Part shown: piece after piece, positions 8,269 through 21,214 of the stretch | Position numbering within the stretch: the stretch's first letter is position 1 | How the letters are laid out: the number at the start of each line of letters is the position of its first letter | Assembly: GCA_945956975.1 (NCBI GenBank) | Contig: CAMFKC010000001.1 | Coordinates: forward strand, 1-40,046 | DNA length: 40,046 nucleotides | Origin: an uncultured Methylocystaceae bacterium | GTDB lineage: Bacteria; Pseudomonadota; Alphaproteobacteria; Rhizobiales; Beijerinckiaceae | Reading direction: 5' to 3' | Position numbers and translations under genes: made by a program | The notes under the pieces: model-generated | The model's input: the letters and a program-made list of their open reading frames with translations, nothing else | Told to the model about the DNA's origin: nothing | Databases searched by the model: none

Positions 8269-10095
8269 ATGGCCAAACGATCCGAAGCCGGTTCGTCCGG
8301 TGCGCCGCGCAGGCTTGCGGACAGTTTGGCGCGCGCGGCAACGCACGATCGTTTCGAACGCAGCAGGAGTGGGCTGTCCGCCACCATGACAAGACAGAAG
8401 TCGGCCGAACTGCTCGAGACCGTGGATTTCATGGAGGCATTCGTTTCCGAGCTCGGCTCCGTGCTCGATCTTACCACCCACGATCCGTATCTTTCGATGG
8501 CGCTTCATCTCATGCGGACGCATCTCGAGGGAAGGTCCGTGACGGCGTCGTCGCTCGTCGCGGAATCCGGCGTCGCCTATGCGACGGGCATGCGCAAGCT
8601 TGCGGACATGCAGGAGGCGGGGCTCGTCGAGCAGCGCTCCCGCACGCGCACCGGCAAGAGCTTTTCCCTACATCCGAGCGCCCGGTTGATCGCGAGCTGG
8701 GGTGTCCTCGGCGAGCGCTTGCAGCGCATCGCCGCGCAACGGTACGGCGCGTCGGCGGGCGACAGGGGGGCGTCGGACTACTATTTTGGCGGCACCTATC
8801 TCCAGAGCCATTCGATCCCGCCGCCGAAGGTCCTGTCCGAGCCGCTTTCCGTGCCCGGCGGCATCCGCGTGCTCGTCCATGGCGACCCGACCTTCATGGT
8901 CATGGAGCACCTCAAGCGCCAGTTCGAGCAGATCGTCGGCACGAAGATCCACCAGCGGGCCTTCTCCATCGACCGCCTGCACGAGGAGGTGCTGAAGAAC
9001 GCCGAGCGGCGCACCAGCCGCTACGACATCGTCGCCGTGGATCTGCCGTGGATCGGCGAGCTCGCATCGAAGAACGTCATCCTGCCGCTGGATACCATAA
9101 TGGATATCGACCTGCTCGATCCCGGCGATTTTCACACGGCGGGATGGCAGGCCGCCCATTGGGGCCGGCGGCCCTACGGCGTTCCGAGCCAGACGACGCC
9201 GGAGCTCCTGTTCTATCGGCGCGATCTCTTCGCCCAGGCCGGCCTCGAACCGCCGACGACCACGAAGGGCGTGCTGGCCTCCGCCAAGGTGCTGCATGCG
9301 CCGGCGCTCGGCCGCTACGGCATCGCCTGGAACGCCGCGCGCGGAACGGCGCTCGGGCATACGTTCATGATGGCCTGCGCGGATTTCGGCCAGCCGCTCC
9401 TGAACCTGCGGGCGGTGCATGGCGGCTTCGACACGTCCAACCTTCACCGGGACGATCTCGTTCCGACGATCGATACGCCCCGCGCCCTCGAGGCGGCGGA
9501 ATATCTGATGGCGCTTCTGCAATATTCGCCGCCCTATATCCTCTCCATGTCGTGGTACGAGCGCATCCGGCCCTATGCCGCGGGCGAGGTCGCCATGGCC
9601 TATGGCTACACGCTGCTCGCGCCCTATTTCGAGCTCGACCCGAAATCGCCGGCCTTCGGGAACACGGCCTATCTGCCCCATCCGACGGGCACCGGCGGCG
9701 CGCCGGTCGCCCCTATCGGCGGCTATGTGCTGTGCATCCCCAGCAATCTTTCGGAAGAGAGAATGTCGGCCGCGACGCAGGCGCTGGTGGCCTTCACCTC
9801 GCCAGAGGCCCAGAAGCTCTACATCACCAACGGCAGCCGCACCGCGCCGCGCTATTCGGTCGGCGCGGACCCCGATGTCCGGCGTCTCTCCCCGATCTTC
9901 GAGGCGGTGGATGCCATGTCCTGGCGGGACGAGCTGCAGTTCTGGCCGCGCCCGCCGATCCCCGAGATCGCGAGCATCATCACGATCTGCGGCGAGGAGA
10001 TCCACGACATGCTGCGCGGTGCGATTTCCCCGCGCGAGGCCCTGCGCCGCGCGCAGGCGCGCGTGGAAAGGGAGATGAAGGGCCGGAGGCGGTGA
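8269..10095 (+). CDS. Putative transcriptional regulator: N-terminal winged-helix (MarR/ArsR-like) domain fused to a signal-peptide-less family-1 solute-binding-protein domain
   Basis: wHTH-like segment SVTASSLVAESGVAYATGMRKLADMQEAGLVEQRSRTRTGKSFSLHPS. The C-terminal ~430 aa carry SBP family-1 hallmarks (RYDIVAVDLPWIGE...ILPLD, PYGVPSQTTPELLFYRRDLFAQAGLEPP). No hydrophobic signal sequence. ATG 8269 follows GAGGTG; GTG 8263 is an alternative start. Confidence 0.75.
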   Translation: MAKRSEAGSSGAPRRLADSLARAATHDRFERSRSGLSATMTRQKSAELLETVDFMEAFVSELGSVLDLTTHDPYLSMALHLMRTHLEGRSVTASSLVAESGVAYATGMRKLADMQEAGLVEQRSRTRTGKSFSLHPSARLIASWGVLGERLQRIAAQRYGASAGDRGASDYYFGGTYLQSHSIPPPKVLSEPLSVPGGIRVLVHGDPTFMVMEHLKRQFEQIVGTKIHQRAFSIDRLHEEVLKNAERRTSRYDIVAVDLPWIGELASKNVILPLDTIMDIDLLDPGDFHTAGWQAAHWGRRPYGVPSQTTPELLFYRRDLFAQAGLEPPTTTKGVLASAKVLHAPALGRYGIAWNAARGTALGHTFMMACADFGQPLLNLRAVHGGFDTSNLHRDDLVPTIDTPRALEAAEYLMALLQYSPPYILSMSWYERIRPYAAGEVAMAYGYTLLAPYFELDPKSPAFGNTAYLPHPTGTGGAPVAPIGGYVLCIPSNLSEERMSAATQALVAFTSPEAQKLYITNGSRTAPRYSVGADPDVRRLSPIFEAVDAMSWRDELQFWPRPPIPEIASIITICGEEIHDMLRGAISPREALRRAQARVEREMKGRRR

Positions 10096-10118: not shown

Positions 10119-11240
10119 TCAACGGATGTCGACCGACCGGCCGCTCCGTGCCGATTGCTGGATCGCCTCGACGCAGCGTTGCACCTGCCAGGCCTCGCGG
10201 AAATCCGTGACGCATTTGCCGCCTGACGCCCAGGCCGCCAGCAGCTCCGCGACCTCGATGACCTTCAGGTCGTTGAAGCCGAGATGGTGGCCAGCGGCGG
10301 GGCAGAACGTGCCGTAGGGGGGATGCGCCGGGCCTGCCTCGATCTTCGTGAAGCCGTTGCGGCCCGGCCCGCCGGCATGATGGATCAGCAGTTCGTTCAT
10401 GCGCTCCTGGCTGAAGGCGAGCGCGCCTTTGGTGCCGGTGATTTCCCAGCTCAGGTCCATCGTGCGGCCCGTTGCTGCCCAGTTGGCCTCGATGCTTCCC
10501 TCCGCGCCGTTCTCGAAGCGGAGCAGCGCATGGGTCATGTCGTCCACGACGACGGGTGTACGGTCGAGGCTTCCGGTCATCACGGGCCGCGTCCTGTGAA
10601 TGGTGCGGCTCTGGCCGGCGACGGCCGTGATCGGCCCGAGCAGGTAGCGCGCCATGGACAGGATGTGGCTGCCGATATCGGCAAGGGCGCCGCCGCCCTC
10701 GGGATCGGTGCGGAAGCTGTGCGGCGTGTCGGGATCGCACATGTAGTTTTCCGCATGGCGCCCGCGAAAGCCGGTGATCTCCCCCAGCTCACCCGACCGG
10801 ACGATCTCCTGCGCCAGCTTGATCATCGGATTGCGCAGGAAGTTGAAGCCGACCAGCGTCAGGGTGCCGGCCTTCTCCGCCGCCTCCGTCATCCGCCAGC
10901 CGCTCTCGGCGGTGATGGAAAGCGGCTTCTCGCAATAGACCGCCTTTCCCGCCGCAATCGCCGCCAGCACGATCGGTTCGTGCAGCACGTTCGGCGCGGT
11001 CACGGCGACGATATCGACCTCGGGGTCGGCGACCAGCGTGCGCCAGTCTCCCGTCGCCTTTTTATAACCGAGCAGGGCCGCGTTGCGGATCGCGCTCTCC
11101 TCGGAAATGTCGCTCAGCATGTGCGGCACGGCCTCGACCGGAAGATCGAACAGCCCGCCCACCGACCGGAACGCATTTGCGTGGCAGCGCCCCATGAAAC
11201 CCGCCCCGATAAGGCCGATCCTCGCCTTTCGCCTGTCCAT
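10119..11240 (-). CDS. Gfo/Idh/MocA-family NAD(P)-dependent oxidoreductase
   Basis: ATG 11240 follows GGGAGGA. N-terminal Rossmann motif RIGLIGAGFMGRCHA and the family EKP motif (VYCEKPL). Confidence 0.88.
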   Translation of the reverse strand: MDRRKARIGLIGAGFMGRCHANAFRSVGGLFDLPVEAVPHMLSDISEESAIRNAALLGYKKATGDWRTLVADPEVDIVAVTAPNVLHEPIVLAAIAAGKAVYCEKPLSITAESGWRMTEAAEKAGTLTLVGFNFLRNPMIKLAQEIVRSGELGEITGFRGRHAENYMCDPDTPHSFRTDPEGGGALADIGSHILSMARYLLGPITAVAGQSRTIHRTRPVMTGSLDRTPVVVDDMTHALLRFENGAEGSIEANWAATGRTMDLSWEITGTKGALAFSQERMNELLIHHAGGPGRNGFTKIEAGPAHPPYGTFCPAAGHHLGFNDLKVIEVAELLAAWASGGKCVTDFREAWQVQRCVEAIQQSARSGRSVDIR

Positions 11241-11303
11241 TCGATCCTCCCGTTCGATTTGCATCGGTCTTAGCCCGGCGGGTGGAGGATGCGAATTCCC
11301 CGG

Positions 11304-11320
11304 ATGTCCATTTTGGATAT
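11304..11320. promoter_or_regulatory. Candidate operator, 7-3-7 inverted repeat (site b)
   Basis: ATGTCCA-TTT-TGGATAT in the divergent intergenic region between the oxidoreductase genes starting at 11240 (-) and 11408 (+). Confidence 0.6.
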
Positions 11321-11407: not shown

Positions 11408-13006
11408 GTGGAGCGAGCGGACGTGAAGTACGATTACATCGTCGTGGGGGCCGGCTCCGCCGGATGCGCGGTCGCGGGCCGCCTGGGCGAGGCCGGCAAG
11501 CGGGTGCTGCTGCTGGAGGCGGGCGGCAAGGATACCAGTCCCTGGATCCACATTCCCCTCGGCTACGCCAAGCTCTATGCCAATCCGAAGGTGAACTGGT
11601 GCTTCAACAGCGAGCCCGAGCCCCATCTCAACAATCGCCGGCTCTTCCAGCCGCGCGGCAAGGTGCTCGGCGGCACCGGCTCGATCAACGGCATGATCTA
11701 CATGCGCGGCCAGCCGGAGGATTTCGACAACTGGGAGGCGGGCGGCTGTAGCGGGTGGGGATGGTCCGGCGTGCTTCCCTATTTCAAGTCCTGCGAGGAC
11801 CAGCAGCGCGGCGCGAATGCGTTTCACGGCACGGGCGGTCCCGTATCCGTTTCGGACCTGCCGGGACCGCACCTGCTGGGAGAGGCGTTCCACGCCGCCT
11901 CCGAACGGCTCGGCGTGCCCCGCAACGACGATTTCAACGGCGCGGCCCAGCTCGGCACCGGCTATGTCCAGACGACGACCCGCAAGGGCCGCCGCTGGTC
12001 GACGGCGCGCGGCTACCTGCGCGGTCCCGCGATGGACAACATCACCGTCGCGCTCCACGCCCATTGCGAGAAGGTGGACTTCGAAGGCCGACGTGCCGTC
12101 GGCGTCGCCTGGACCGATCGCACCGGCCGTCACAGCGCCCGGGCGGGCCGCGAGGTGATCCTGTGCGGCGGCACCTTTTCCTCGCCGCAACTGCTTCAGC
12201 TTTCGGGCATCGGCCCCGCGCGCCTGCTGCGCGAGCATGGTGTCGACGTGCTGCACGACCTGCCCGGCGTCGGCGAGAACCTTCAGGACCATTTCGGCAT
12301 CGGCCTCGAATTCGAGAGCACCTCGCCGACGACGGTCAACGATCTCTACAACAACTGGCTGCGCGGCGGCGTCCAGTTCCTGCGCTATCTCCTGACCCGC
12401 AAGGGGCCTTTCGCCGACAACGGCAATTATTCCAACACCTTCATCCATTCCGGGCCCGATATTCCCACGCCCGACATGATGGTCACCTTCATGTCGTGGT
12501 GCACAAACGAGGAGCTGGTGCCCCACCCGTTTTCCGGCTTCACGATCCTGTGCGAGCATATGCGGCCGGACAGCCGCGGCCATGTGCGCATCCGCTCGGC
12601 GCGGAGCACCGACGCCCCTTCCATCCAGTTCAACTTCTTCGAGAGCGATGCCGACCACCGCGCCGCGCTGGCAGGTCTCAGATTCGGCCGGCGGATATCG
12701 CAGACCGACCCGATGCGCGGTTTCGTGCGCCGCGAGGTCTCTCCCGGCCTCGATGTCGAGAGCGACGACCAGATGATCGCCTATTGCAGGCAGAACGGCC
12801 TCTCGCTGCTCCATCCCGTCGGCACCTGCCGCATGGGCACCGGCGCCGACGCGGTGGTCGATCCGCGTCTGCGGGTCCATGGCGTCAGCGGGCTGCGCGT
12901 GATCGACGCCTCGATCATGCCGCGCATCGTCACCGGCAACACCAACGCCGCCTCGATCATGATCGGCGAAAAGGGCGCGGCCCTTGTTCTGGAGGAGACA
13001 GCATGA
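11408..13006 (+). CDS. GMC-family FAD-dependent oxidoreductase (choline/alcohol/sugar dehydrogenase-like)
   Basis: YDYIVVGAGSAGCAVAGRL FAD motif, GKVLGGTGSINGMIYMRG, and C-terminal HPVGTCRMG...VVD..LRVHGVSGLRVIDASIMP. The start is uncertain: GTG 11408 lies 4 nt after GGAGGA, and GTG 11423 is an alternative. Confidence 0.88.
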   Translation: MERADVKYDYIVVGAGSAGCAVAGRLGEAGKRVLLLEAGGKDTSPWIHIPLGYAKLYANPKVNWCFNSEPEPHLNNRRLFQPRGKVLGGTGSINGMIYMRGQPEDFDNWEAGGCSGWGWSGVLPYFKSCEDQQRGANAFHGTGGPVSVSDLPGPHLLGEAFHAASERLGVPRNDDFNGAAQLGTGYVQTTTRKGRRWSTARGYLRGPAMDNITVALHAHCEKVDFEGRRAVGVAWTDRTGRHSARAGREVILCGGTFSSPQLLQLSGIGPARLLREHGVDVLHDLPGVGENLQDHFGIGLEFESTSPTTVNDLYNNWLRGGVQFLRYLLTRKGPFADNGNYSNTFIHSGPDIPTPDMMVTFMSWCTNEELVPHPFSGFTILCEHMRPDSRGHVRIRSARSTDAPSIQFNFFESDADHRAALAGLRFGRRISQTDPMRGFVRREVSPGLDVESDDQMIAYCRQNGLSLLHPVGTCRMGTGADAVVDPRLRVHGVSGLRVIDASIMPRIVTGNTNAASIMIGEKGAALVLEETA

Positions 13007-14004
13007 CCATCGGTATTTCCGTTTTCGGCTCCGGCCGCATCGGCGTCATCCATGCCCGCAACGCGGCGAAGGCCGCCGGGGCGCGGCTTGTCAGCATCAT
13101 GAACCCGGACCGCGCCTTGGCGCAGCCCCTTGCCGACGAGCTCGGCGTGCCCGTCGTCGAAAGCGCGGAACAGGCGCTGTCCGATCCCGCGGTCGATGCC
13201 GTCATCATCTGCACGCCGACCTCCACCCATGTCGAGCTGATCGAGCAGACCGCCCGCGCCGGGCGGGCCGTCATGTGCGAAAAGCCACTCGACCTCGCCA
13301 TCGGCCGCGTCGACCGCGCCGTGGCGGTGCTGGAGGAAACCGGCACGCCCTTCATGCTCTCGTTCAACCGGCGCTTCGATCCCGGCGTCGCTGCGCTTCG
13401 CGCGGCGGTCGAGGCGGGAGAGGTCGGCGCGCTCAACATGCTGTCGCTGACCTCGCGCGATCCCGCGCCGCCGCCGATCGACTATGTCCGCCAGTCCGGC
13501 GGCTATTTCGCCGACAGCACGATCCACGACATCGACCTCGCCTGCTGGATAACGGGCGAACTACCGGTCGAAGTCCACGCCACCGGCTCCTGCCTCGTCG
13601 ATCCCGCCATCGGCGCAGAGGGCGATTGCGATACCGCGATGACGACCCTCAAGATGCCCTCGGGCGTGCTGGTCCATATCAACAATTCGCGCCGCGCCGT
13701 CTACGGCTTCGACCAGCGCATCGAGGCATTCGGCTCGGGCGGCATGGTGCAGACGGCCAACCAGCACAACGACAACCTTCTGCGGACTACCGCCGAAGGC
13801 TTCGCCAGCCAGTCGCCGTTGAAGCACTTCTTCCTCGAACGCTACGAGGCGAGCTTCGCCCATGCGCTCGACGAATTCGTCTCGGCGCTGCGCGAGCGGC
13901 GTGCGCCGTCAGCAACGCAGCGGGACGGGCGCAACGCGCTCGTCATCGCACTGGCATGCGAGGAATCGCGCACCACCGGCCGGGTCGTGCGGCCGCGATT
14001 CTAG
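13003..14004 (+). CDS. Inositol 2-dehydrogenase-like oxidoreductase (IdhA/IolG-like, Gfo/Idh/MocA family)
   Basis: The ATG overlaps the GMC stop (ATGA). Motifs VFGSGRIG, MCEKPL, FNRRFDP. Paralog of CDS 29727..30743 over the full length. Confidence 0.85.
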   Translation: MTIGISVFGSGRIGVIHARNAAKAAGARLVSIMNPDRALAQPLADELGVPVVESAEQALSDPAVDAVIICTPTSTHVELIEQTARAGRAVMCEKPLDLAIGRVDRAVAVLEETGTPFMLSFNRRFDPGVAALRAAVEAGEVGALNMLSLTSRDPAPPPIDYVRQSGGYFADSTIHDIDLACWITGELPVEVHATGSCLVDPAIGAEGDCDTAMTTLKMPSGVLVHINNSRRAVYGFDQRIEAFGSGGMVQTANQHNDNLLRTTAEGFASQSPLKHFFLERYEASFAHALDEFVSALRERRAPSATQRDGRNALVIALACEESRTTGRVVRPRF

Positions 14005-14117
14005 CCCCGGTTTTCGCGACGTTTCCCGCGCTTCCGACGGGAGCGCGGGACAGGCGGTTTTTCCGGATTCCGACTTGGATGGACATTCTCCAAGAATATC
14101 CAAAACGCGATGTTTCG

Positions 14118-14134
14118 ATATCCATTTTGGATAA
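14118..14134. promoter_or_regulatory. Candidate operator, 7-3-7 inverted repeat (site c)
   Basis: ATATCCA-TTT-TGGATAA, upstream of the second fusion-regulator gene. An extra ATATCCA half-site is at 14096-14102. Confidence 0.6.
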
Positions 14135-14290: not shown

Positions 14291-16003
14291 ATGAAGATGA
14301 TGGAGGAAAGCAACCGGGGCCTGCGCGACGGGCTGGATTTCCTGGAGAGCTTCTCGACCGAGCTGGGCAGCACGTTCGAGCTCGAGGCGCCGAACCCGTT
14401 TCTCAACATGGCGAGCCATCTCCTGCGGCACCATCTCGACGGTAAGCTCGTCACGCCGACGTCGCTCATCGCCGCTTCCGGCGTGCCCTATGCGACTGCG
14501 TCGCGCAAGCTGAAGGAGATGGAGCGCGCCGGGCTTCTGGAGCACCGCGAAAGGAGCAGGTCCGGACGCACGTTTTCGGTCCATCCGAGCGAACGGCTCG
14601 TCTCCGCCATGACCAACCTCATCGCCCGCAGCCGCCAGCTCGCCTCCCGATACATGGGCACGGGGCAGGACGACGGCAGCGCGTACTATTTCCAGAGCAC
14701 GCACCAGCAGGCGTCAACGATCCGTCCGCCACTCGTCTTGAACCGGGCCCTCTCGCTTTCCGGCGGCCTGCGCATCCTCGTGCATGGCGACCCGACCTTC
14801 ATGGTCATGGATAAGCTCAAGCGCCAGTTCGAGCAGATGGTCGGCGTCAAGATCAACCAACGGGCGTTCTCCATCGACCGGCTGCGCGAAGAGGCGATCC
14901 GCAATGCCGAGCGGCCGGCCAGCCGCTACGACATCATCGCCGTCGACCTTCCCTGGGTCGGCGAGTTCGCGGAAAAGGGCATTCTCGCCCCGCTCGACGA
15001 ACTCATGGACATCGGGCGCCTGAAGCCGGACGACTTTCACCCGGCCGGCTGGCGCGCGACCCATTGGGGCGGGAGGCCCTATGGCGTGCCGAGCCAGACG
15101 ACGCCCGAACTGCTGTTCTACCGGCGCGACCTCTTCGCCGAGGCGGGCCTCGAGCCGCCGGCGAGCGTCGAGGATGTGCTGAAGGCCGCCGAGGTCTTCC
15201 ACCGCCCGTCCCAGGGGCGCTACGGCATTGCCTGGAACGCGGCGCGCGGAACGGCGCTTGGCCATACATTCATCATGGCCTGCGCCGATTTCGGCCAGCC
15301 GGTGCTGGACCTCGCGCCGCTGGCCCATGGCTTCGACGCCGATATCGGCCTTCGCGATGACCTGCGCGCGACGATTGACACGCCGAAGGGCCTGGAGGCG
15401 GCGGAGTACCTGCGCGCGATGCTCGCCTACTCGCCACCCGACATTCTCTCCATGTCCTGGTACGAGCGCATCCGTCCCTATGCGGCCGGCAAGGTCGCGA
15501 TGGCCTATGGCTATACCGCGCTCGCGCCCTATTTCGAGCTGGATCCGGGCTCGCCAGCCTATGGGCAGACGGGCTACCTGCCGCATCCGGCCGGCCCCGG
15601 CGTTGCGCCGCATGCGACGGTCGGCGGATACATGCTCGGCATTCCCGCCAACCTTCCCGCCGAGCGGCGGGCGGACGCCATCGAGGCGCTGATCGCCTTC
15701 ACCTCGGCCGAGGCCCAGAAGCTCTTCGTGGTCAACGGCTCGCGCACCGCGCCGCGCTATTCGGTCGGCGCGGATCCGGAAGTGCGCCGCCGCTCGCCGA
15801 TCTTCGAGGCCGTCGACGCCATGTCCTGGCGCGAGGAGCTGCAGTTCTGGGCGCGCCCGCCCATCCCGAAGATCTCCGAGATCATCCGCATCTGCGGCGA
15901 GGAATTTCACGACATGCTGCGCGGTATCCAGCCGGCGCGCATCGCCTTGCAACGCGCCCAGGCCCGTGCCGACGCGCTCTTGAAAACGACGTCAACGAAT
16001 TGA
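14291..16003 (+). CDS. Putative transcriptional regulator, wHTH + family-1 solute-binding domain fusion (paralog of 8269..10095)
   Basis: Alignable by eye with CDS 8269..10095 over essentially the whole length, e.g. LVHGDPTFMVM.KLKRQFEQ, PYGVPSQTTPELLFYRRDLFA, GIAWNAARGTALGHTF.MACADFGQP. wHTH segment LVTPTSLIAASGVPYATASRKLKEMERAGLLEHRERSRSGRTFSVHPS. Start uncertain: ATG 14291/14297/14300, or GTG 14210 which has no SD. Confidence 0.75.
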   Translation: MKMMEESNRGLRDGLDFLESFSTELGSTFELEAPNPFLNMASHLLRHHLDGKLVTPTSLIAASGVPYATASRKLKEMERAGLLEHRERSRSGRTFSVHPSERLVSAMTNLIARSRQLASRYMGTGQDDGSAYYFQSTHQQASTIRPPLVLNRALSLSGGLRILVHGDPTFMVMDKLKRQFEQMVGVKINQRAFSIDRLREEAIRNAERPASRYDIIAVDLPWVGEFAEKGILAPLDELMDIGRLKPDDFHPAGWRATHWGGRPYGVPSQTTPELLFYRRDLFAEAGLEPPASVEDVLKAAEVFHRPSQGRYGIAWNAARGTALGHTFIMACADFGQPVLDLAPLAHGFDADIGLRDDLRATIDTPKGLEAAEYLRAMLAYSPPDILSMSWYERIRPYAAGKVAMAYGYTALAPYFELDPGSPAYGQTGYLPHPAGPGVAPHATVGGYMLGIPANLPAERRADAIEALIAFTSAEAQKLFVVNGSRTAPRYSVGADPEVRRRSPIFEAVDAMSWREELQFWARPPIPKISEIIRICGEEFHDMLRGIQPARIALQRAQARADALLKTTSTN

Positions 16004-16014: not shown

Positions 16015-16821
16015 ATGGATCCGAACCGCCTGAAGGGCAAGAACATCCTGGTCACCGGCGCCGCACAGGGCATGGGCGCCTGCAATGCCGAATATTTCGC
16101 CGCGCAGGGCGCCAATGTCTGCCTCGGCGACATCAATGTCGCCGGCGTGAACGACGTGGCGCGGCGCATCAACGAGGCCGGCAACGGCAAGGCGATCGCC
16201 GTCAAGCTCGACGTCACCAGCCGCACCGACAATGCCGAGGCGGTCGCGGCCACGGTCGATGCCTTCGGCTCCATCAACGTGACGCTCCTCAATGCCGGCA
16301 TCAACAAGCCCCTGATGTTCCTCGATATCACCGAGGAGAACTGGGACATGATCATGAACATCAACGCGAAGGGCCAGCTTCTCGGCATGCAGGAGGCGGC
16401 CAAGCAGTTCATCAGGCAGGGCAAGGAGAACGGGCCCTACAAGATCGTCAATGTCGGCTCCATCGTCTCGCGCCAGGCCTTCCTCGACGTCGTGCCCTAT
16501 TCGGCCTCCAAGCATGCGACGCTCGCGCTCATCAATGGCGGCGCCAAGGCGCTCGTCGAGCACAACATCACCGTCAACGGCTACGGTCCCGGCGTCGTGC
16601 GCACGGAACTGTGGGAGCAGCTCGACAAGGACCTCGTCAAGATCGGCATGTTCGAGAAGGAGGGCCAGTCGATGGATCACCTCGCAAAGACAATGATCCT
16701 GATGAAGCGCTACAGCTATCCCGACGACGTTCGCGGGACGGCCGCCTTCCTGTGCTCGCCCGAAAGCGACTACATGACCGGCCAGCTCATCATGATCGAC
16801 GGCGGCATGATCATGCAGTGA
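16015..16821 (+). CDS. SDR-family oxidoreductase (acetoin reductase/2,3-butanediol or polyol dehydrogenase-like)
   Basis: ATG 16015 follows GAGGAGGA. Motifs TGAAQGMG, NAG and S...YSASK. ITVNGYGPGVV and DYMTGQLIMIDGGM resemble BudC-type enzymes. Paralog of CDS 6244..7041. Confidence 0.88.
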   Translation: MDPNRLKGKNILVTGAAQGMGACNAEYFAAQGANVCLGDINVAGVNDVARRINEAGNGKAIAVKLDVTSRTDNAEAVAATVDAFGSINVTLLNAGINKPLMFLDITEENWDMIMNINAKGQLLGMQEAAKQFIRQGKENGPYKIVNVGSIVSRQAFLDVVPYSASKHATLALINGGAKALVEHNITVNGYGPGVVRTELWEQLDKDLVKIGMFEKEGQSMDHLAKTMILMKRYSYPDDVRGTAAFLCSPESDYMTGQLIMIDGGMIMQ

Positions 16822-16898
16822 CCGGCCGCCGCCGACCCTTTCCACCGATCCCTATCGCTATGACGCGCGCCCCTGACGGCTGCGCGAAGGAGAAAGCC

Positions 16899-18203
16899 AT
16901 GGCCATCACCACCGCCCTCAACCCCCGCATCCTCCAGCCCGGAGACATCGACCCGAACTGGCGCTGGGACCGGCATCTGCCGGCGCTCGGCCACACCGCC
17001 GTCGATTTCGAGCGACGCGTCGATCACGACCGCCTGCGCCGCTACCGCCTCAGCCGCGCCAAGGACGCGCTGAAGAAGTCCGGGCTTGGCGCGCTCCTGA
17101 CCTTCGACGTCAACAACATCCGCTACATCACCGGCACGAAGATCGGGGAATGGGAGCGCGACAAGATGTGCCGCTTCGCGCTTCTCGCCGGCGACGAGGA
17201 GCCCTTCGTCTGGGATTTCGGCTCCGCGGCGGTGCATCACAGGCAATATTGCGACTGGCTGAACCCCGACCATTGCCGTGCCGGCGTCGTCGGCATGCGC
17301 GGCACGATCCCGCCGTCCTTCGGCTTGATGAAATACTATGCCGAGGAGATCGCCTCGCTGCTGCGCGCCGCGGGCGTGCTCGACATGCCGGTCGGCGTCG
17401 ACTACGCCGAGACGGCGATGTTCTTCGCCTTGCAGGAGGCGGGCATCAAGGTCGTCGACGGCCAGCAGGTCATGCTCTCGGCCCGTGAAATCAAGAATGT
17501 CGACGAGATCCACCTCCTGACGCAGGCGGCCAGCATGGTCGACGGCGTCTACCACATGATCTGGGAGGAGCTGAAGCCGGGCATCCGCGAGAACGACATC
17601 GTCGCCATGGCCAACAAGCTGCTCTACGAGATGGGCTCCGACGACGTGGAGGCGATCAACGCGATCGCCGGCGAGCGCTGCAACCCGCATCCGCACAACT
17701 TTACAGACCGCCTGTTCCGCCCGGGTGACCAGGCGTTCTTCGACATCCTGCAGAGCTACCAGGGTTATCGTACCTGCTACTACCGCACTTTCAACATCGG
17801 CCGCGCGACGCCAGTGCAGCGCGACGCCTATGTGAAGGCGCGCGAATGGCTGGATGCCTCCATAGCGATGATCAAGCCGGGCGTCACGACCGACAAAGTG
17901 GCGGCGGTCTGGCCGACGGCCGAGAGCCTCGGCTTCCCGAACGAGCTGGCCGCCTTCGGCCTGCAGTTCGGCCACGGCCTCGGCCTTGCGCTGCATGAGC
18001 GCCCGATCATCAGCCGCGCGGTCAGCTTCGAAAATCCCATGGTCATCGAGACGGGCATGGTCTTCGCGCTCGAAACCTACTGCCCGGCCGCGGACGGCTA
18101 CTCGGCGGCGCGCATCGAGGAGGAGGTCGTCGTGACCGACAAGGGCTGCGAGGTCATCAGCCTCTTCCCCGCCGAAGAGCTGCCGATCGCCAACCGCTAC
18201 TGA
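16899..18203 (+). CDS. M24-family (creatinase/Xaa-Pro peptidase fold) hydrolase with an atypical metal site
   Basis: ATG 16899 follows GAAGGAGA. Pita-bread-fold motifs GDQAFFDILQSYQGYRTCYYRTF, FGHGLGLALHERP, GMVFALETY and RIEEEVVVT. The second metal-ligand Asp position is Cys (codon 17775-17777). Confidence 0.8.
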   Translation: MAITTALNPRILQPGDIDPNWRWDRHLPALGHTAVDFERRVDHDRLRRYRLSRAKDALKKSGLGALLTFDVNNIRYITGTKIGEWERDKMCRFALLAGDEEPFVWDFGSAAVHHRQYCDWLNPDHCRAGVVGMRGTIPPSFGLMKYYAEEIASLLRAAGVLDMPVGVDYAETAMFFALQEAGIKVVDGQQVMLSAREIKNVDEIHLLTQAASMVDGVYHMIWEELKPGIRENDIVAMANKLLYEMGSDDVEAINAIAGERCNPHPHNFTDRLFRPGDQAFFDILQSYQGYRTCYYRTFNIGRATPVQRDAYVKAREWLDASIAMIKPGVTTDKVAAVWPTAESLGFPNELAAFGLQFGHGLGLALHERPIISRAVSFENPMVIETGMVFALETYCPAADGYSAARIEEEVVVTDKGCEVISLFPAEELPIANRY

Positions 18204-18259
18204 CATCCCGCCGCGCCGGAGCGTCTGCCTCAGGTGCGGCCTTCACCGGGAAGAGATCC

Positions 18260-19267
18260 ATGACACAAAGGAAGACCAACTCCGACGCCTATCTGCGGAT
18301 GTACCGCCAGATGGTGCGCATCCGCGCCTTCGAGGACCAGGCGAATTCGCTTTACCTGTCGGCCAAGATGCCAGGGCTGACCCACATGTATTCCGGCCAG
18401 GAAGCGGTGGCGGTCGGCATCTGCGAGGCGTTGACGCGTGACGACAAGGTCACCTCGACTCATCGCGGCCACGGCCACTGCGTCGCCAAGGGTGCGGAAT
18501 TCAAGGAGATGTTCTGCGAGCTTCTCGGCCGTGCCGAGGGTTATTGCGGCGGCAAGGGCGGCTCCATGCACATCGCCGACCAGTCGAACGGCAATCTCGG
18601 AGCCAATGCCATCGTAGGCGGCTCGATGGGTATCGCCACGGGGGCCGCGCTTTCGGCCAAGCGTCTCGGGCGCAAGGATGTGACGGTCTGTTTCTTCGGC
18701 GACGGCGCGACGGCACAGGGCCTGCTCTACGAGGTCATGAACATGGCCGCGCTCTGGAGACTACCGGTCATCTATGCATGCGAGAACAACGGTTACAGCG
18801 AATATACCAAGACCGCCGAGATCGCCGCCGGCTCGCTGACGGCGCGCGCCGAGGCCTTCGGTATCGAAGCTTTCACCGTCGACGGCCAGGACGTGCTGGC
18901 AGTCAATGAGCTCGCACAGAAGCTGGTTGCCCGCTGCCGTAAGGGGGAGGGGCCGTTCTTCGTGCAGCTCGACACCTACCGCTATCACGGCCACCATGTC
19001 GGCGATATCAACCGCGAATACTACCGCTCCAAGGACGAGGAGGCGCTCTGGAAAAACGAGCGTGACCCGATCCTTAATTTCGGCCGCTGGCTGTCGGCCG
19101 AGGGCCTCGCGTCGGCCGACGAGCTCGCTGCCATCGAGAAGGCCGTGAAGGCCGATGCGGAAGCCGCCGTCGCCTATGCGCTGGCTGCGCCTTTCCCCGA
19201 TCCCTCGCAGGTGGGACGCCATGTCTTCACCGACATGATCGTCGCCCGAGGAGACCACAATGCGTGA
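18260..19267 (+). CDS. TPP-dependent 2-oxoacid/acetoin dehydrogenase E1 alpha subunit
   Basis: TPP-binding block FFGDGATAQGLLYEVMNMAALWRLPVIYACENNGY, plus YSGQEAVAVG and THRGHGH motifs. Confidence 0.9.
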   Translation: MTQRKTNSDAYLRMYRQMVRIRAFEDQANSLYLSAKMPGLTHMYSGQEAVAVGICEALTRDDKVTSTHRGHGHCVAKGAEFKEMFCELLGRAEGYCGGKGGSMHIADQSNGNLGANAIVGGSMGIATGAALSAKRLGRKDVTVCFFGDGATAQGLLYEVMNMAALWRLPVIYACENNGYSEYTKTAEIAAGSLTARAEAFGIEAFTVDGQDVLAVNELAQKLVARCRKGEGPFFVQLDTYRYHGHHVGDINREYYRSKDEEALWKNERDPILNFGRWLSAEGLASADELAAIEKAVKADAEAAVAYALAAPFPDPSQVGRHVFTDMIVARGDHNA

Positions 19268-20243
19268 AATCACCCTTTCCAAGGCCGTCAACGAGGCAAT
19301 CGCCGAGGAGATGCGCCGCGATCCCTCGATCTTCCTGATCGGCGAGGACGTCGCCGAGGCCGGTACGCCCTTCAAGGTGCTCTCCGGCCTCGTCGAGGAG
19401 TTCGGCCCGGACCGCATCATCGACACCCCCATTTCCGAACCCGGCTTCATGGGCATGGCGGTGGGCGCGGCGATAACGGGCAGCCGCCCGATCGTCGACC
19501 TGATGTTCGGCGACTTCATCTTCCTCGTCATGGACCAGCTCTGCAACCAGGCGGCCAAGACGCATTACATGTCGGGCGGCAAGCTGAAGGTGCCGCTCGT
19601 GCTGCGCACCAATCTCGGCGCTACCCGCCGCTCGGCCGCCCAGCACAGCCAGTCGCTGCATGCGCTCGTCGCGCATATTCCCGGCCTCAAGGTCGCGCTG
19701 CCGTCCTCGGCCTACGAGGCGAAGGGCCTCCTGAAGACGGCGATCCGCGACGACAACCCGGTCGTCATCTTCGAAGACAAGCTGATGTACCAGGAAAAGG
19801 CCGGCGTGCCCGAGGAGGAATATCTCATCCCCTTCGGTGTCGCCAACGTGAAGCGCGAGGGGCGCGACGTAACGCTCATTGCCACGTCCTCCATGGTGCA
19901 GGTCGCCGAAAAGGCGGCCGACATGCTCGCGGCCGAAGGTATTTCGGCCGAGGTCATCGACCCGCGCACGATCGTGCCGCTCGACGAGGAGACGCTGCTC
20001 GCCTCCGCGCGCAAGACCGGGCGCGTCGTCGTCATCGACGAGGGGCACCAGAGCTACGGCGTCACCGCCGAGATCGCCAGCCGCATCGGGGACAAGGCCT
20101 TCTACCATCTTGACGCGCCGGTGCAGCGCATGGGCGCCATGGATGTCCCGGTTCCCTTCTCGCCGGCGCTGGAGGACCTGACGGTGCCGACGCCGGATGG
20201 CGTAGCTGCGCGGGCGCGGGCGCTCGTACGCGGGGAGATCTGA
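19260..20243 (+). CDS. 2-oxoacid/acetoin dehydrogenase E1 beta subunit
   Basis: The ATG overlaps the E1 alpha 3' end. Transketolase-like pyrimidine-binding motifs (IGEDV, DTPISE.GF.G.A.GAA..G.RP) and the C-terminal domain are present. Confidence 0.9.
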   Translation: MREITLSKAVNEAIAEEMRRDPSIFLIGEDVAEAGTPFKVLSGLVEEFGPDRIIDTPISEPGFMGMAVGAAITGSRPIVDLMFGDFIFLVMDQLCNQAAKTHYMSGGKLKVPLVLRTNLGATRRSAAQHSQSLHALVAHIPGLKVALPSSAYEAKGLLKTAIRDDNPVVIFEDKLMYQEKAGVPEEEYLIPFGVANVKREGRDVTLIATSSMVQVAEKAADMLAAEGISAEVIDPRTIVPLDEETLLASARKTGRVVVIDEGHQSYGVTAEIASRIGDKAFYHLDAPVQRMGAMDVPVPFSPALEDLTVPTPDGVAARARALVRGEI

Positions 20244-20245
20244 CC

Positions 20246-21214
20246 ATGGCGAACGATGTCATCATGCCGGCGCTCGGCATGGCCCAGACCTCCGGCGTGA
20301 TCGTCAACTGGCTGAAGGCCACCGGTGACGCGGTGGCCGAAGGCGATCCGCTGATGGAGGTGGAGACCGACAAGGCGGTCATGGAGGTCCAGGCGCTCGC
20401 CTCCGGCTTCCTGATCGAGATCCTGCATCCCGCCGGTGCCGATGTCCCGGTCGGGGAGGTGATCGCCCGCATCGGCGCGAGCGCGGATGCGGTGGTTTCG
20501 GCGAAAAAGCCGGAGCCGGCGCCCGCCGTGGCGGCGGAAGCACCGGCCCGCGCGGTTGACGCAGCCGCTTCGCCCGAACCGGTGCGCAAGGCGCCCGCAC
20601 AGCCGGCCCAGGCGGGCAAAGTATTGGCCTCTCCCAAGGCGCGCCGGCTGGCCGACGAGCGCGGCGTCGATCTTCGCCGCCTCGTCGGCCAGGGCATCAC
20701 CGAGCCCATCCACGTCGCCGATCTCGACCGCTATGTCGCCGTTCCTGCGCCACAGGCCGCAGGCGCCGCGCTGAACGAGATCCTTGCCACCCTTCCGGCG
20801 GATGCGCTCCGGCAATTCGCCGACTGGGCCGAACGGGAAGCCGGGGTCTCGGCCGCCGCGCTGCTGGCGGCGCTTGCCGGCTCCGCGCTCGGCCGGCCGG
20901 CGACGATCCGCGTCGAGCACCGCCATGCGGCGCATGTCTACGACATCGGCGCCCGCCCGTCGCTCGGCGGGCTTGCCGCACGGGACGACGGGCAGGCCGA
21001 ATCGGCCCTCATCCTGCGTGACCTGAGGGGAAGCCGCATCGGGCGGGCAAGGCTGGCGGCCGATCTCGCCCCGGTGCTGACTCTTGCCGACGATGAGGAC
21101 CGGCTTTCCGTGACGCTCACCTTCACGGGCGACCGTTTGGGAACGGAGGATGCCTTCGCCCTGATCGACGCCTTTGCGGCGCGGGTGGAAAACCCGATGC
21201 GCCTGCTTCTCTAG
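20246..21214 (+). CDS. Lipoyl-carrier / E3-binding protein with a degenerate, His-less acyltransferase core (E3BP-like)
   Basis: Lipoyl domain with the VETDKAVMEV lipoyl-lysine motif, an Ala/Pro linker, and a peripheral-subunit-binding domain ASPKARRLADERGVDLRRLVGQG. The short C-terminal region ends ...TFTGDRLGTEDAFALIDAFAARVENPMRLLL. This aligns with the E2 DHR..G motif, but the catalytic His is absent. Confidence 0.75.
   Translation: MANDVIMPALGMAQTSGVIVNWLKATGDAVAEGDPLMEVETDKAVMEVQALASGFLIEILHPAGADVPVGEVIARIGASADAVVSAKKPEPAPAVAAEAPARAVDAAASPEPVRKAPAQPAQAGKVLASPKARRLADERGVDLRRLVGQGITEPIHVADLDRYVAVPAPQAAGAALNEILATLPADALRQFADWAEREAGVSAAALLAALAGSALGRPATIRVEHRHAAHVYDIGARPSLGGLAARDDGQAESALILRDLRGSRIGRARLAADLAPVLTLADDEDRLSVTLTFTGDRLGTEDAFALIDAFAARVENPMRLLL

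What the first reader, a model, noticed from the sequence alone, without database searches (positions are those of the whole stretch)
14291..16003. Second wHTH + solute-binding-domain fusion regulator heading an enzyme operon (copy 2)
This is a full-length paralog of 8269-10095 with the same architecture. Long blocks are identical (LVHGDPTFMVM, KRQFEQ, PYGVPSQTTPELLFYRRDLFA, GIAWNAARGTALGHTF, SRTAPRYSVGADP), and near-identical DNA stretches occur (e.g. catggcgacccgaccttcatggtcatgga in both). Divergent segments fall where SBPs normally line the ligand cleft. Here the regulator is co-directional with, and separated by only 11 nt from, the SDR / M24 / dehydrogenase-complex genes. Palindrome site c (14118-14134) plus a half-site lie upstream. 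Two diverged copies that appear to share an operator motif raise questions of cross-talk, heterodimerisation, or two effectors converging on one regulon.
Basis: partly seen in the sequence, partly recalled or inferred. Interest (0 to 1): 0.75.

Follow-up and report, generated by a model that had tools for sequence, protein, structure and literature searches.

The report
Cytoplasmic sugar-sensor regulator, second copy
This gene, annotated everywhere as a transporter's solute-binding protein, is most likely a cytoplasmic transcription factor: a MarR-like DNA-binding head fused to a maltose-binding-protein-type sensor, from a widespread family for which I found no description, and present here in two diverged copies that share one operator sequence.

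Summary
The sequence facts hold. Window 14291-16003 (+) encodes an intact 570-aa protein that is 65% identical to the product of 8269-10095. It has a MarR-like winged-helix head (aa 1-122), a conserved linker, and a MalE-type solute-binding domain (aa ~159-565). It has no signal peptide, and it stops 11 nt before the SDR gene.

A 15-bp palindrome, TATCCA-N3-TGGATA, lies upstream of both copies and in two more intergenic regions of the window. In 82 related loci it is about 345 times denser just upstream of the homologous gene than elsewhere, often as two sites exactly 21 bp apart. These two genes are the only transcription-factor candidates found in the window.

My best reading is a one-component regulator, probably a repressor, that binds the palindrome as a dimer and responds to a sugar or polyol.

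- The copies are not a recent duplicate. Copy 2 belongs to a separate clade that travels with a GMC/GFO oxidoreductase module, and this module sits between copy 1 and the ancestral operon.
- The identical blocks, not the divergent ones, coincide with canonical cleft positions. Divergence is greatest in the predicted dimerisation helices.

The family occurs in more than 500 species, always annotated as a transport protein. I found no description of it. The closest analogue is E. coli SgrR.

The parts
14291..16003 (+). REG2: gene for the 570-aa wHTH + SBP fusion protein. The likely true start is ATG 14297.
   Evidence: P0001 is 99% identical and 568 aa.
14291..14656 (+). N-terminal MarR-like winged-helix domain, aa 1-122. 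Elements: alpha1 2-29, alpha2 36-49, alpha3 56-62, recognition helix 67-79, wing strands 83-87 and 95-99, alpha5 101-122.
   Evidence: AF2 pLDDT 92.4. The top 50 Foldseek PDB hits are almost all MarR-family regulators. MarR_2 is hit by 33 of 34 family members, below the cut-off.
14657..14764 (+). Linker, aa 123-158. It carries the family-conserved motif D-YYFGGSY...PP-VL. AF2 models it with low confidence.
14765..16000 (+). MalE-type (SBP_bac_1 / SBP_bac_8) solute-binding sensor domain, aa 159-570.
   Evidence: Pfam. PDB by sequence: 5iai, 1eu8, 4rya. Foldseek E 8e-27, TM 0.81 normalised to the target.
14119..14133 (.). Operator: perfect palindrome TATCCATTTTGGATA upstream of REG2.
14097..14111 (.). 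Degenerate upstream operator (left half TATCCA only), 22 bp before the perfect site. It is a remnant of the canonical tandem pair.
8269..10095 (+). REG1: paralogue of the main clade, with the ~38-aa N-terminal extension typical of the family.
8186..8221 (.). Tandem operators TATCCATATCTGATA (8186-8200) and AGTCCAAAATGGATG (8207-8221), 21 bp apart. They lie between the divergent sugar-transporter operon and REG1.
11305..11319 (.). Operator TGTCCATTTTGGATA between the divergent GFO/IDH/MocA gene (minus strand) and the GMC oxidoreductase gene (plus strand).
   Evidence: The same position is occupied in L083, L084 and L087.
10119..11264 (-). GFO/IDH/MocA oxidoreductase, part of the module that travels with the REG2 clade.
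   Evidence: 71-77% identical in L083, L084, L087.
11426..14004 (+). GMC flavoprotein oxidoreductase (11426-13006) and a second GFO/IDH/MocA oxidoreductase (13003-14004), directly upstream of REG2.
16015..24937 (+). Operon headed by REG2: SDR 16015-16821, M24 creatinase/prolidase-like 16899-18203, E1 alpha 18260-19267, E1 beta 19260-20243, lipoyl carrier 20246-21214, aldehyde dehydrogenase ~21174-22658, E2 catalytic domain ~22594-23550, E3 23558-24937.
   Evidence: The gene order is conserved in 80+ loci.
2693..8059 (-). Divergent operon: Peripla_BP_4 binding protein 7109-8059, SDR 6244-7041, two BPD_transp_2 permeases and an ABC ATPase. This is the canonical partner of the regulator gene.
29584..29656 (.). 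Two more operators, TATCCACTTTGGATA (29584-29598) and TATCCATTTTGAACA (29642-29656). They lie between a Peripla_BP_4 gene (minus strand, start ~29492) and a GFO/IDH/MocA gene (plus strand, 29727).

Best explanation
REG2 (14291-16003) is a cytoplasmic one-component transcription factor.

Proposed mechanism:
- Its N-terminal MarR-like winged-helix domain dimerises through the long helices alpha1 and alpha5.
- The dimer binds the 15-bp palindrome TATCCA-N3-TGGATA, one recognition helix per half-site.
- In the canonical family layout, two dimers sit on tandem sites 21 bp apart, which is two helical turns, so they lie on the same face of the DNA.
- The C-terminal MalE-type solute-binding domain closes around a small sugar, polyol or oxidised-sugar effector.
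- The conserved linker passes this closure to the dimer, which changes DNA affinity.

I think it is most likely a repressor that the effector releases. It would control its own transcription together with the SDR-M24-E1/E2/E3-aldehyde dehydrogenase operon it heads. Through the sites at 11305 and 29584/29642 it would also control the GFO/GMC oxidoreductase genes and a second binding-protein/GFO cluster.

REG2 belongs to a clade that travels with the GMC/GFO module. That module, with its own regulator, lies between REG1 and the operon that REG1-type regulators head in nearly all other genomes. Both proteins keep the same recognition-helix and wing residues and nearly the same cleft, so they probably read the same operators.

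Shown: the sequences, the domain families, the predicted folds, the absence of an export signal, the synteny, and the motif enrichment and spacing.
Inferred: DNA binding, dimerisation, the sign of regulation, the effector class and the cross-regulation.
For: Domains:
- SBP_bac_1 scores 102.7 bits.
- The full AF2 model matches sugar-binding SBPs 5iai, 1eu8 and 6dtq at E 1e-27 to 1e-23.
- The N-domain model has pLDDT 92.4 and the wHTH order H-H-H-H-E-E-H. The Foldseek hits are almost all MarR-family regulators, several of them solved on DNA.
- 33 of 34 family N-domains hit MarR_2, and many also hit TrmB, IclR or HTH_20.

Cytoplasmic location:
- No segment exceeds a Kyte-Doolittle score of 1.25 over 19 residues, and the N-terminus is polar.
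- The neighbouring transporters have their own Peripla_BP_4 binding proteins and BPD_transp_2 permeases.

Operator:
- The window holds 5 matches with at most 2 mismatches, against 0.30 expected, and all are intergenic.
- In 82 related loci there are 124 sites in 29.6 kb of upstream zones (4.19 per kb) against 16 sites in 1317 kb elsewhere (0.012 per kb).
- 68 of 82 loci have at least one site, and 32 have a pair exactly 21 bp apart.
- Most loci scored as empty carry degenerate versions at the same place.
- In the REG2-clade loci L083, L084 and L087, nearly all good matches lie in intergenic regions next to the GMC, GFO, PhyH or REG genes.

No rival regulator: no other HTH protein turned up among the window's candidate ORFs.

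Conserved candidate DNA-contact residues: T55, Y67, R72, R86 and G92 are invariant. P66, A68, T69, R88 and H98 are at least 90% conserved.

Both copies are under constraint:
- They deviate at 6 (REG2) and 9 (REG1) of 222 highly conserved columns, against a family median of 3 and maximum of 17.
- dN/dS of the SBP part is 0.30.

Clade and module.
Against: - No experiment supports DNA binding.
- The head does not reach Pfam's MarR cut-off, and a profile of it finds nothing significant among PDB sequences.
- Foldseek TM-scores are only 0.45-0.56.
- No sigma-70-like promoter was found near the sites, so the sign of regulation is a guess.
- The N-domain shows dN/dS of about 0.86 between the two copies. 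This could mean relaxed constraint on the very domain proposed to bind DNA.
- The REG2 control region has one perfect site plus a half-site rather than the canonical tandem pair.
- The effector is unknown.
Confidence: 0.72

Rival explanations
1. The protein is what the databases call it: an ABC-transporter solute-binding protein. On this view the N-terminal 160 residues are an unusual anchor or leader.
For: Every source name is 'extracellular solute-binding protein' or 'multiple sugar transport system substrate-binding protein'. The SBP domain is a strong match. ABC transporters lie close by.
Against: - There is no signal peptide, lipobox or hydrophobic segment.
- The N-terminal part folds with high confidence as a MarR-like wHTH.
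- The adjacent transporters have their own type-I (Peripla_BP_4) binding proteins and BPD_transp_2 permeases, and no MalF/G-type permease was found in the window.
- The gene heads an enzyme operon, with a conserved palindrome upstream.
Confidence: 0.04
2. The palindrome is the operator of some other regulator encoded elsewhere in the genome. The fusion protein would then act without sequence-specific DNA binding, for example as a cytoplasmic ligand buffer, an enzyme partner, or a co-regulator that binds another transcription factor.
For: DNA binding is untested. The head scores below family cut-offs. The SBP domain is far more conserved than the head, which is unusual for a transcription factor.
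Against: - The motif tracks the fusion gene in 68 of 82 loci from two orders, at a fixed distance and spacing.
- It also tracks the gene in REG2-clade loci with different neighbours.
- No other regulator gene is conserved in these loci.
- The recognition helix and wing are the conserved part of the head.
Confidence: 0.1
3. It is a DNA-binding regulator of this operator but works as an effector-dependent activator, as SgrR does at sgrS, rather than as a repressor.
For: No promoter could be placed relative to the sites. The sites lie about 70-170 nt upstream of the start codons, which also fits class-I activation. The analogous SgrR is an activator that represses its own gene (PMC7786190, which cites Vanderpool and Gottesman).
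Against: - MarR-like heads usually repress (general knowledge).
- The canonical layout has 2-4 sites running from the divergent promoter zone into the first codons of the regulator gene. That pattern looks like promoter occlusion or a roadblock.
Confidence: 0.25
4. One of the two copies is redundant and decaying, so only one regulator is functional.
For: - REG2 has lost the N-terminal extension and the canonical tandem-site control region.
- REG1 deviates at 9 conserved columns, including P103A in the helix-turn-helix region and G300R.
- In L086 a second, adjacent paralogue appears frameshifted.
Against: - Both ORFs are full length.
- Both share all of the roughly 130 invariant columns.
- Their deviation counts lie within the family range.
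- SBP dN/dS is 0.30.
- The REG2 clade is conserved in other genomes, where it is the only copy seen on the sequence fetched.
Confidence: 0.08

Closest known systems
E. coli SgrR (SgrR_N wHTH + SBP_bac_5 solute-binding domain)
   Same: It is a cytoplasmic transcription factor of similar length (551 aa) built from an N-terminal winged-helix DNA-binding domain and a C-terminal domain of the kind used by ABC-transporter binding proteins. It is thought to be switched by a small molecule bound at the C-terminus, and it is autoregulated (PMC7786190).
   Different: - There is no detectable sequence similarity (BLASTP E 1.8).
- The head belongs to a different family: SgrR_N is not hit, and MarR_2 is the best weak hit.
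- The sensor belongs to a different SBP family (family 1/8, MalE-type, against family 5, oligopeptide-type).
- The targets differ (catabolic operons against an sRNA gene).
- It is therefore an independent fusion.
MarR-family regulators (e.g. MepR, PefR, HosA, MftR, SlyA)
   Same: The predicted head has the same fold and element order: long N- and C-terminal helices, a helix-turn-helix and a beta-hairpin wing. It is associated with a short palindromic operator, often in tandem copies.
   Different: - It scores below Pfam's MarR and MarR_2 cut-offs.
- MarR proteins are about 140-160 aa and bind ligands in a cleft between the dimerisation and DNA-binding regions.
- Here a separate 410-aa SBP domain is attached and presumably does the sensing.
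LacI/GalR and LysR regulators (HTH fused to periplasmic-binding-protein folds)
   Same: They follow the same design principle: a DNA-binding head plus a Venus-flytrap binding-protein fold as the cytoplasmic effector sensor, controlling sugar catabolism and transport from palindromic operators (general knowledge).
   Different: LacI uses a type-I PBP fold and a different HTH. LysR uses a small type-II fold. Neither contains a full MalE-type SBP_bac_1 domain, and neither family is hit here.
TrmB (Thermococcus/Pyrococcus sugar-specific regulator)
   Same: It has an N-terminal wHTH and a C-terminal sugar-binding domain, and it controls a sugar ABC transporter. The TrmB HTH model is weakly hit by 27 of 34 family heads.
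   Different: The hits are far below the cut-off (best E 0.0028). From general knowledge, the TrmB sugar-binding domain is not an ABC-type SBP fold. Nothing in the C-terminal domain here points to TrmB.
Periplasmic sugar/polyol-binding proteins 5iai (Agrobacterium radiobacter Arad_9887), 1eu8 (trehalose/maltose-binding protein), 4rya (Agrobacterium vitis AVI_3567; chain named as a sorbitol-binding protein)
   Same: These are the best sequence and structure matches of the C-terminal domain: 20-24% identity, TM 0.72-0.81 normalised to the target. They suggest a sugar or polyol ligand.
   Different: Those proteins are exported transporter components without a DNA-binding head. The sensor here is cytoplasmic and much more strongly conserved within its family.

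Membership tests
SBP_bac_1 / MalE-type solute-binding proteins (fold and domain) | Sequence match to the Pfam family above its curated cut-off | tested here: met
   PF01547 scores 102.7 bits against a cut-off of 26. PF13416 scores 76.4 bits against 27.
SBP_bac_1 / MalE-type solute-binding proteins (fold and domain) | Two-lobed binding-protein fold | tested here: met
   The AF2 model matches 5iai, 1eu8 and 6dtq at E 8e-27 to 4e-23, with TM 0.79-0.83 normalised to the target.
ABC-transporter substrate-binding component (function) | Export signal (signal peptide or lipoprotein box) | tested here: not met
   The N-terminus is polar. The maximum 19-residue hydropathy is 1.25, and 0.96 within the first 70 residues.
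ABC-transporter substrate-binding component (function) | Encoded with matching MalF/G-type (BPD_transp_1) permeases | tested here: not met
   All permeases found in the window are BPD_transp_2, and they are paired with Peripla_BP_4 binding proteins.
MarR family | Match to Pfam MarR or MarR_2 above the curated cut-off | tested here: not met
   MarR_2 scores 22.3 bits (full protein) and 25.5 bits (head alone) against a cut-off of 27. MarR scores 14.6 bits against 24.6.
MarR family | Winged-helix fold flanked by long N- and C-terminal helices | tested here: met
   The head model has pLDDT 92.4. Its elements are H2-29, H36-49, H56-62, H67-79, E83-87, E95-99 and H101-122. Nearly all of the top 50 PDB matches are MarR-family proteins, at E 2e-4 to 2e-3.
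MarR family | Homodimer that binds a palindromic operator | not testable with these tools
   The evidence is indirect only. A 6-3-6 palindrome is about 345-fold enriched upstream of the family's genes, with 21-bp tandem spacing.
SgrR family | SgrR_N head and SBP_bac_5 sensor | tested here: not met
   E. coli SgrR hits PF12793 and PF00496. REG2 hits neither. The pairwise BLASTP E-value is 1.8.
One-component transcription factors with a binding-protein-fold sensor (general class) | DNA-binding domain and small-molecule sensor domain in one cytoplasmic polypeptide, encoded next to its targets, with a conserved operator | tested here: met
   DNA and ligand binding themselves were not testable.

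The most novel reading that the evidence does not exclude
This is an undescribed and widespread family of transcription factors: a MarR-like head fused to a full MalE-type binding protein, found in more than 500 species of marine and soil Alphaproteobacteria and annotated everywhere as transporter parts.

In this genome, two anciently diverged members share one operator code and an almost identical ligand cleft, but they have diverged most in their dimerisation helices. On this reading they form an insulated pair of homodimers that compete or cooperate at the same operators. Four promoter regions of a sugar/polyol oxidation island would then be under two-regulator combinatorial control.
Probability: 0.35. 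Interest if true: 0.72.

Novelty: new variant of a known kind. Interest (0 to 1): 0.6.

Why it matters
If the reading is right, the practical consequences are these:

- **Annotation.** Hundreds of genes in Rhodobacterales and Hyphomicrobiales genomes that are labelled as extracellular solute-binding proteins are really the local regulators of a conserved but uncharacterised catabolic island. That island comprises a ribose-type ABC transporter, two SDRs, an M24 hydrolase-like protein, an acetoin-dehydrogenase-like complex and an aldehyde dehydrogenase.
- **Regulon prediction.** Correcting the annotation gives an operator, TATCCA-N3-TGGATA, with which the regulon can be predicted genome-wide.
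- **Finding the substrate.** The highly conserved sensor domain could be screened for its ligand, which would be a route to the unknown substrate of the pathway.
- **Biosensor design.** It adds a second, independent example beside SgrR of an ABC-type binding protein recruited as a cytoplasmic sensor. This matters for biosensor design because MalE-type domains are easy to engineer.
- **Paralogue insulation.** The two-copy arrangement offers a natural test case for how paralogous regulators that share an operator are kept apart or made to cooperate.

Tried and rejected
- **Profile of the N-domain against PDB sequences.** Nothing was significant. The best hits were HTH regions of an Mga-like and an IclR protein at E 0.24-0.3. 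The fold assignment therefore rests on the AF2 model and Foldseek.
- **NCBIfam.** There is no family model. Only a weak MalE hit appeared.
- **phmmer of the head against 1.84 billion representatives.** It returned 149 hits. All eleven that I inspected are the same fusion or fragments of it that continue into the DYYFGGSY linker and the HGDPTFMVM motif. I saw no stand-alone head and no other partner domain.
- **Promoter and terminator scans** around both control regions found nothing, so repressor and activator cannot be told apart.
- **Rfam scan of the window.** No hit.
- **Nine literature searches.** Queries covered SBP_bac_1/SBP_bac_8 with HTH or DNA-binding terms, MarR with solute-binding fusion, Phaeobacter plasmid locus tags, and the gene-cluster content. 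They found no description of the family or of the pathway.
- **Recent local duplication or gene conversion.** Rejected. dS is similar in head and sensor (0.65 and 0.70). The two copies fall in different clades. The other REG2-clade loci examined lack a REG1-type copy nearby.
- **A regulator role for ORFs 10284-11273 and 12984-14213.** Rejected. They have no Pfam hits. The real genes there are GFO/IDH/MocA on the minus strand (10119-11264) and GFO/IDH/MocA in another plus frame (13003-14004).
- **Mapping variable positions onto 3D coordinates.** I used an hhalign mapping to E. coli MalE instead. Its probability is only 43%, so residue equivalences are approximate.
- **Identifying the substrate of the pathway.** I could not do this.
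Full report
**1. The observation**

ORF 14210/14291-16003 (+) is intact. Its product aligns with the product of 8269-10095 at 65% identity and 79% similarity over 565 residues, with two gaps.

The quoted 29-nt DNA string occurs exactly twice, at 8878 and 14783, with none expected by chance. The sensor-coding halves of the two genes are 78.5% identical over 1186 nt. The head-coding parts are not detectably similar at the DNA level.

The stop codon is at 16001-16003. Eleven nt containing GGAGGA follow, and then the ATG of the SDR gene at 16015. The palindrome is TATCCATTTTGGATA at 14119-14133, and a TATCCA half-site lies 22 bp upstream. The closest database relative, P0001 (99% identical), is 568 aa. 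That length and the RBS position favour ATG 14297 as the start. This changes nothing of substance.

**2. What the protein is**

- *Sensor domain.* Residues ~159-565 are a family-1/8 bacterial solute-binding domain (PF01547 at 102.7 bits, PF13416 at 76.4 bits). The nearest solved relatives by sequence are sugar or polyol binding proteins: 5iai, 1eu8 and 4rya. An AlphaFold2 model built from 63 family members (mean pLDDT 79.6) matches these and MalE-type proteins, at Foldseek E 8e-27 to 1e-18 and TM about 0.8 normalised to the target.
- *Head by sequence.* The N-terminal 125 residues are only weakly recognisable by sequence. MarR_2 scores 22-25 bits against a cut-off of 27. A family profile finds nothing significant among PDB sequences. 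Even so, 33 of 34 family heads hit MarR_2, and many also hit the TrmB, IclR or HTH_20 models.
- *Head by fold.* Modelled on its own, the head folds with pLDDT 92.4 as helix 2-29, helix 36-49, helix 56-62, helix 67-79, hairpin 83-87/95-99 and helix 101-122. Nearly all of the 50 best PDB matches are MarR-family regulators, including MepR, PefR, MftR and ST1710 solved on DNA (E 2e-4 to 2e-3, TM 0.45-0.56).
- *Conserved head residues.* The invariant or nearly invariant residues sit in the helix-turn-helix and wing: T55, P66, Y67, A68, T69, R72, R86, R88, G92, H98.
- *Linker.* Between head and sensor lies a linker that AF2 models poorly. It nevertheless carries a conserved D-YYFGGSY motif.
- *Location.* There is no signal peptide and no hydrophobic segment.

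**3. Context in the window**

The gene map follows from Pfam scans:

| Coordinates | Strand | Content |
|---|---|---|
| 2693-8059 | - | ABC ATPase, two BPD_transp_2 permeases, SDR (6244-7041), Peripla_BP_4 binding protein (7109-8059) |
| 8269-10095 | + | REG1 |
| 10119-11264 | - | GFO/IDH/MocA oxidoreductase |
| 11426-13006 | + | GMC oxidoreductase |
| 13003-14004 | + | GFO/IDH/MocA oxidoreductase |
| 14291-16003 | + | REG2 |
| 16015-16821 | + | SDR |
| 16899-18203 | + | M24 |
| 18260-20243 | + | E1 alpha, E1 beta |
| 20246-21214 | + | lipoyl carrier |
| ~21174-22658 | + | aldehyde dehydrogenase |
| ~22594-23550 | + | E2 catalytic domain |
| 23558-24937 | + | E3 |
| 24960-28356 | + | a second set of permeases and an ATPase |
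| 28495-~29492 | - | Peripla_BP_4 |
| 29727-30743 | + | GFO/IDH/MocA |
| beyond 30743 | | further binding-protein and ABC genes, an SDR and a PhyH dioxygenase |

No other helix-turn-helix protein turned up among the candidate ORFs I scanned or inspected.

**4. The operator**

The pattern TATCCA-N3-TGGATA, allowing up to 2 mismatches, matches five times in the window against 0.30 expected. Every match is intergenic:
- 8186, with a 3-mismatch partner at 8207 that is 21 bp away, upstream of REG1;
- 11305, between the divergent GFO and GMC genes;
- 14119, upstream of REG2;
- 29584 and 29642, between a binding-protein gene and a GFO gene.

I fetched 80 related loci from species-representative genomes. 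I added two plasmid loci.

In nearly all of them the layout is the same. A transporter operon (ABC genes, SDR, Peripla_BP_4) runs one way. A single regulator gene runs the other way, followed by SDR, M24, E1 alpha, E1 beta, lipoyl carrier, aldehyde dehydrogenase and E2. No locus had a second regulator copy within 8 kb.

In the zone from 320 nt upstream to 40 nt downstream of the start of the match to the regulator there are 124 sites in 29.6 kb. The remaining 1317 kb holds 16 sites. That is 4.19 against 0.012 per kb. Of the 82 loci, 68 have at least one site and 32 have two sites exactly 21 bp apart. Most of the loci scored as empty carry degenerate versions at the same position and spacing, such as TATCCAATCTGAACT-N6-TATTCATTTTGGACT.

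The aligned control regions give this consensus:
- TATCCAtatTGGATA, then ttTtta, then TATCCAnnaTGGATa;
- then a conserved gc.aTAc;
- then a third, weaker element tCAattTGaACA;
- then the RBS and ATG.

Often a fourth site lies inside the first codons of the gene.

This is the usual comparative-genomics signature of an autoregulated local transcription factor. The fusion gene is the only regulator candidate that travels with the motif.

**5. The two copies are not a local duplicate**

In a neighbour-joining tree of 63 family members, REG1 falls in the main clade. REG2 falls in a separate clade with P0002-P0007, P0013 and P0022.

The contigs of four such relatives show a consistent partner set:
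- L083: GFO (minus) | GMC-GFO-REG-SDR-M24, the same layout as the window.
- L084: PhyH, a binding-protein ABC system, GFO, an AP_endonuc_2 protein, REG, and a divergent GMC-GFO | GFO pair.
- L086 and L087: GMC, GFO, AP_endonuc_2 and SDR genes.

The window's GMC protein is 77-85% identical to theirs, and GFO_10119 is 71-77% identical to its counterparts in L083, L084 and L087. In L083, L084 and L087 nearly all good matches to the palindrome lie in intergenic regions next to these genes.

So REG2 is the regulator of a GMC/GFO oxidoreductase module. In this genome, and in L083, that module sits directly upstream of the SDR-M24-dehydrogenase operon. Here it separates REG1 from the operon that REG1-type genes head in other genomes.

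The transporter is duplicated too: 2853-7505 and 24960-28896 are 71-79% identical.

dS is similar for head and sensor (0.65 and 0.70). dN differs greatly (0.56 against 0.21). There is therefore no sign of recent gene conversion.

**6. Are both copies functional, and do they differ in ligand or DNA specificity?**

*Function.* Among 222 columns that are at least 95% conserved in the other 61 sequences, REG2 deviates at 6 and REG1 at 9. The family median is 3 and the maximum 17. Both keep every invariant column. Neither looks like a pseudogene.

*Ligand cleft.* A profile alignment of the family to E. coli MalE (probability only 43%, so equivalences are approximate) was combined with textbook knowledge of the MalE ligand residues: D14, K15, W62, D65, R66, E111, E153, Y155, W230, W340, Y341 and R344. 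These map to REG2 D167, P168, V218, P221, W222, T271, R319, G324/H325, Y414, I532, R533 and G536.

Most of these lie in the blocks HGDPTF, AVDLPW, PSQTTPE, AWNAARGTALGH and LAPYFELD. All except R533 are identical in the two copies, and most are invariant in the family.

Only nine positions separate the two clades consistently. Three of them (T251P, L410A, P443T) lie next to cleft-mapped invariants and could tune specificity. A different effector is therefore less likely but not excluded.

*DNA specificity.* The recognition helix and wing are conserved, and both clades use the same operator consensus. Both proteins probably read the same sites.

*Where they differ most.* The copies are least alike at residues 1-40 and 101-140, at 25-45% identity. 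These are the helices that form the dimer interface in MarR proteins. That pattern fits insulated homodimers. These are also the least conserved parts of the family in general, so the point is only suggestive.

**7. Mechanism proposed**

REG2 is a cytoplasmic one-component regulator. The MarR-like head dimerises and binds the 15-bp palindrome. In the canonical layout, two dimers bind on the same DNA face at 21-bp spacing. The MalE-type domain captures a sugar, polyol or oxidised-sugar metabolite. Closure is transmitted through the conserved linker and changes DNA affinity.

I favour effector-released repression, with about 60% of my belief in the transcription-factor model. The reasons are the MarR-like head and the run of sites that extends from the divergent promoter zone into the start of the regulator gene. 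No promoter could be placed, so activation as in SgrR remains open.

Because the regulator is the first gene of the operon it controls, it would be autoregulated. The sensor (type-II, MalE-like) is unrelated to the transporter's own binding proteins (type-I, Peripla_BP_4). It may therefore sense an intracellular intermediate rather than the transported compound. The substrate of the pathway is unknown.

**8. Comparison with what is known**

- *SgrR.* The closest analogue is E. coli SgrR, which I confirmed here to be SgrR_N plus SBP_bac_5. The architecture and logic are the same. There is no sequence similarity, and both the head family and the SBP family differ, so this is an independent fusion.
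- *MarR family.* The head is MarR-like in fold but fails the Pfam cut-off. Unlike MarR proteins, it carries a separate sensor domain.
- *LacI/GalR and LysR.* These share the principle of an HTH plus a binding-protein fold, but they use other folds.
- *Solved structures.* No solved structure among the top matches covers both domains.
- *Database names.* All names given by public sources are transporter names. NCBIfam has no model.
- *Literature.* Nine full-text searches found no paper describing the family. The searched library is incomplete, so a prior description cannot be ruled out.

**9. Verdict**

I corrected two details: the copies come from old, separate clades, and the ligand cleft is conserved rather than divergent.

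I rate it as a new variant of a known kind: a one-component regulator with a binding-protein sensor. Interest is moderate to high. The family is large, consistently misannotated, has a very clean predicted operator, and controls an uncharacterised catabolic island. This genome also offers a natural two-regulator, one-operator case. Everything beyond sequence, fold prediction and comparative genomics remains inference.

Noticed in passing
L003, L004, L022, L028, L032, L071 and other related loci, about 85-105 nt downstream of the first operator; compare window 8269-8300: In canonical loci a fourth operator-like site (aaATCCAnnnTGGACAa) lies inside the first ~10 codons of the regulator gene. It encodes K-S-x-L-D-N in the otherwise unconserved N-terminal extension. 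The extension may be conserved at the DNA level as an operator rather than at the protein level. REG2 lacks this extension.
   Followed up: partly
window 2853-7505 and 24960-28896: The ribose-type ABC transporter (binding protein, two permeases, ATPase) is present twice at 71-79% nucleotide identity. The transporter is therefore duplicated as well as the regulator. The second set follows the E3 gene of the REG2-headed operon.
   Followed up: partly
window 20246-23550; also L001, L002, L085 and most of L003-L082: The E2 component of the acetoin-dehydrogenase-like complex is split. A lipoyl/E3-binding protein (20246-21214) and a catalytic-domain protein (~22594-23550) are separated by the aldehyde dehydrogenase gene. 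The arrangement is conserved across genera.
   Followed up: partly
window 16015-24937 with 2693-8059: This is a highly conserved gene set of unknown substrate: ribose-type ABC transporter, two SDRs, an M24 creatinase/prolidase-like protein, E1 alpha/beta, E2, E3 and an aldehyde dehydrogenase. It is found in Rhodobacterales and Hyphomicrobiales, often on plasmids (Marinovum, Pacificitalea, Phaeobacter, Tritonibacter). I found no description of it.
   Followed up: partly
window 1743-2693: About 900 nt have lower G+C (the 2001-4000 window is 0.60, against about 0.65 on either side). There is no convincing ORF and no Rfam match. The stretch lies between a binding-protein gene and the end of the ABC ATPase gene.
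   Followed up: no
L086 6296-7985: A second, distant paralogue of the regulator (about 40% identical) lies 2 kb upstream of the P0006 gene. It matches in two separate pieces, and only 366 aa were called as a gene, so it looks frameshifted. Adjacent regulator pairs therefore recur, and one member can decay.
   Followed up: partly
window 14291-16000 against 8269-10092; alignments A1 and A2: The sensor domain is much more conserved than the DNA-binding head. Between the two copies dN is 0.21 against 0.56. Mean column identity is 65% over the whole protein against 47% for the head. About 130 columns are invariant across 63 sequences from two orders. This is unusually strong constraint for a binding-protein domain.
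   Followed up: partly
window 34813-35130, and 35075-39234: The PhyH dioxygenase, binding protein, permease and ATPase module has no TATCCA-N3-TGGATA site upstream in this window. The homologous module in L084 has one (site 3490, before PhyH at 3662). The window's upstream region has other AT-rich repeats that I did not analyse.
   Followed up: no
window 820-1743, 7109-8059, 28495-29492, 30814-31893, ~36300-37265: Five Peripla_BP_4 sugar-binding-protein genes lie within 40 kb, together with three GFO/IDH/MocA, three SDR, one GMC and one PhyH oxidoreductase genes. This is a dense sugar, polyol or cyclitol oxidation island.
   Followed up: no
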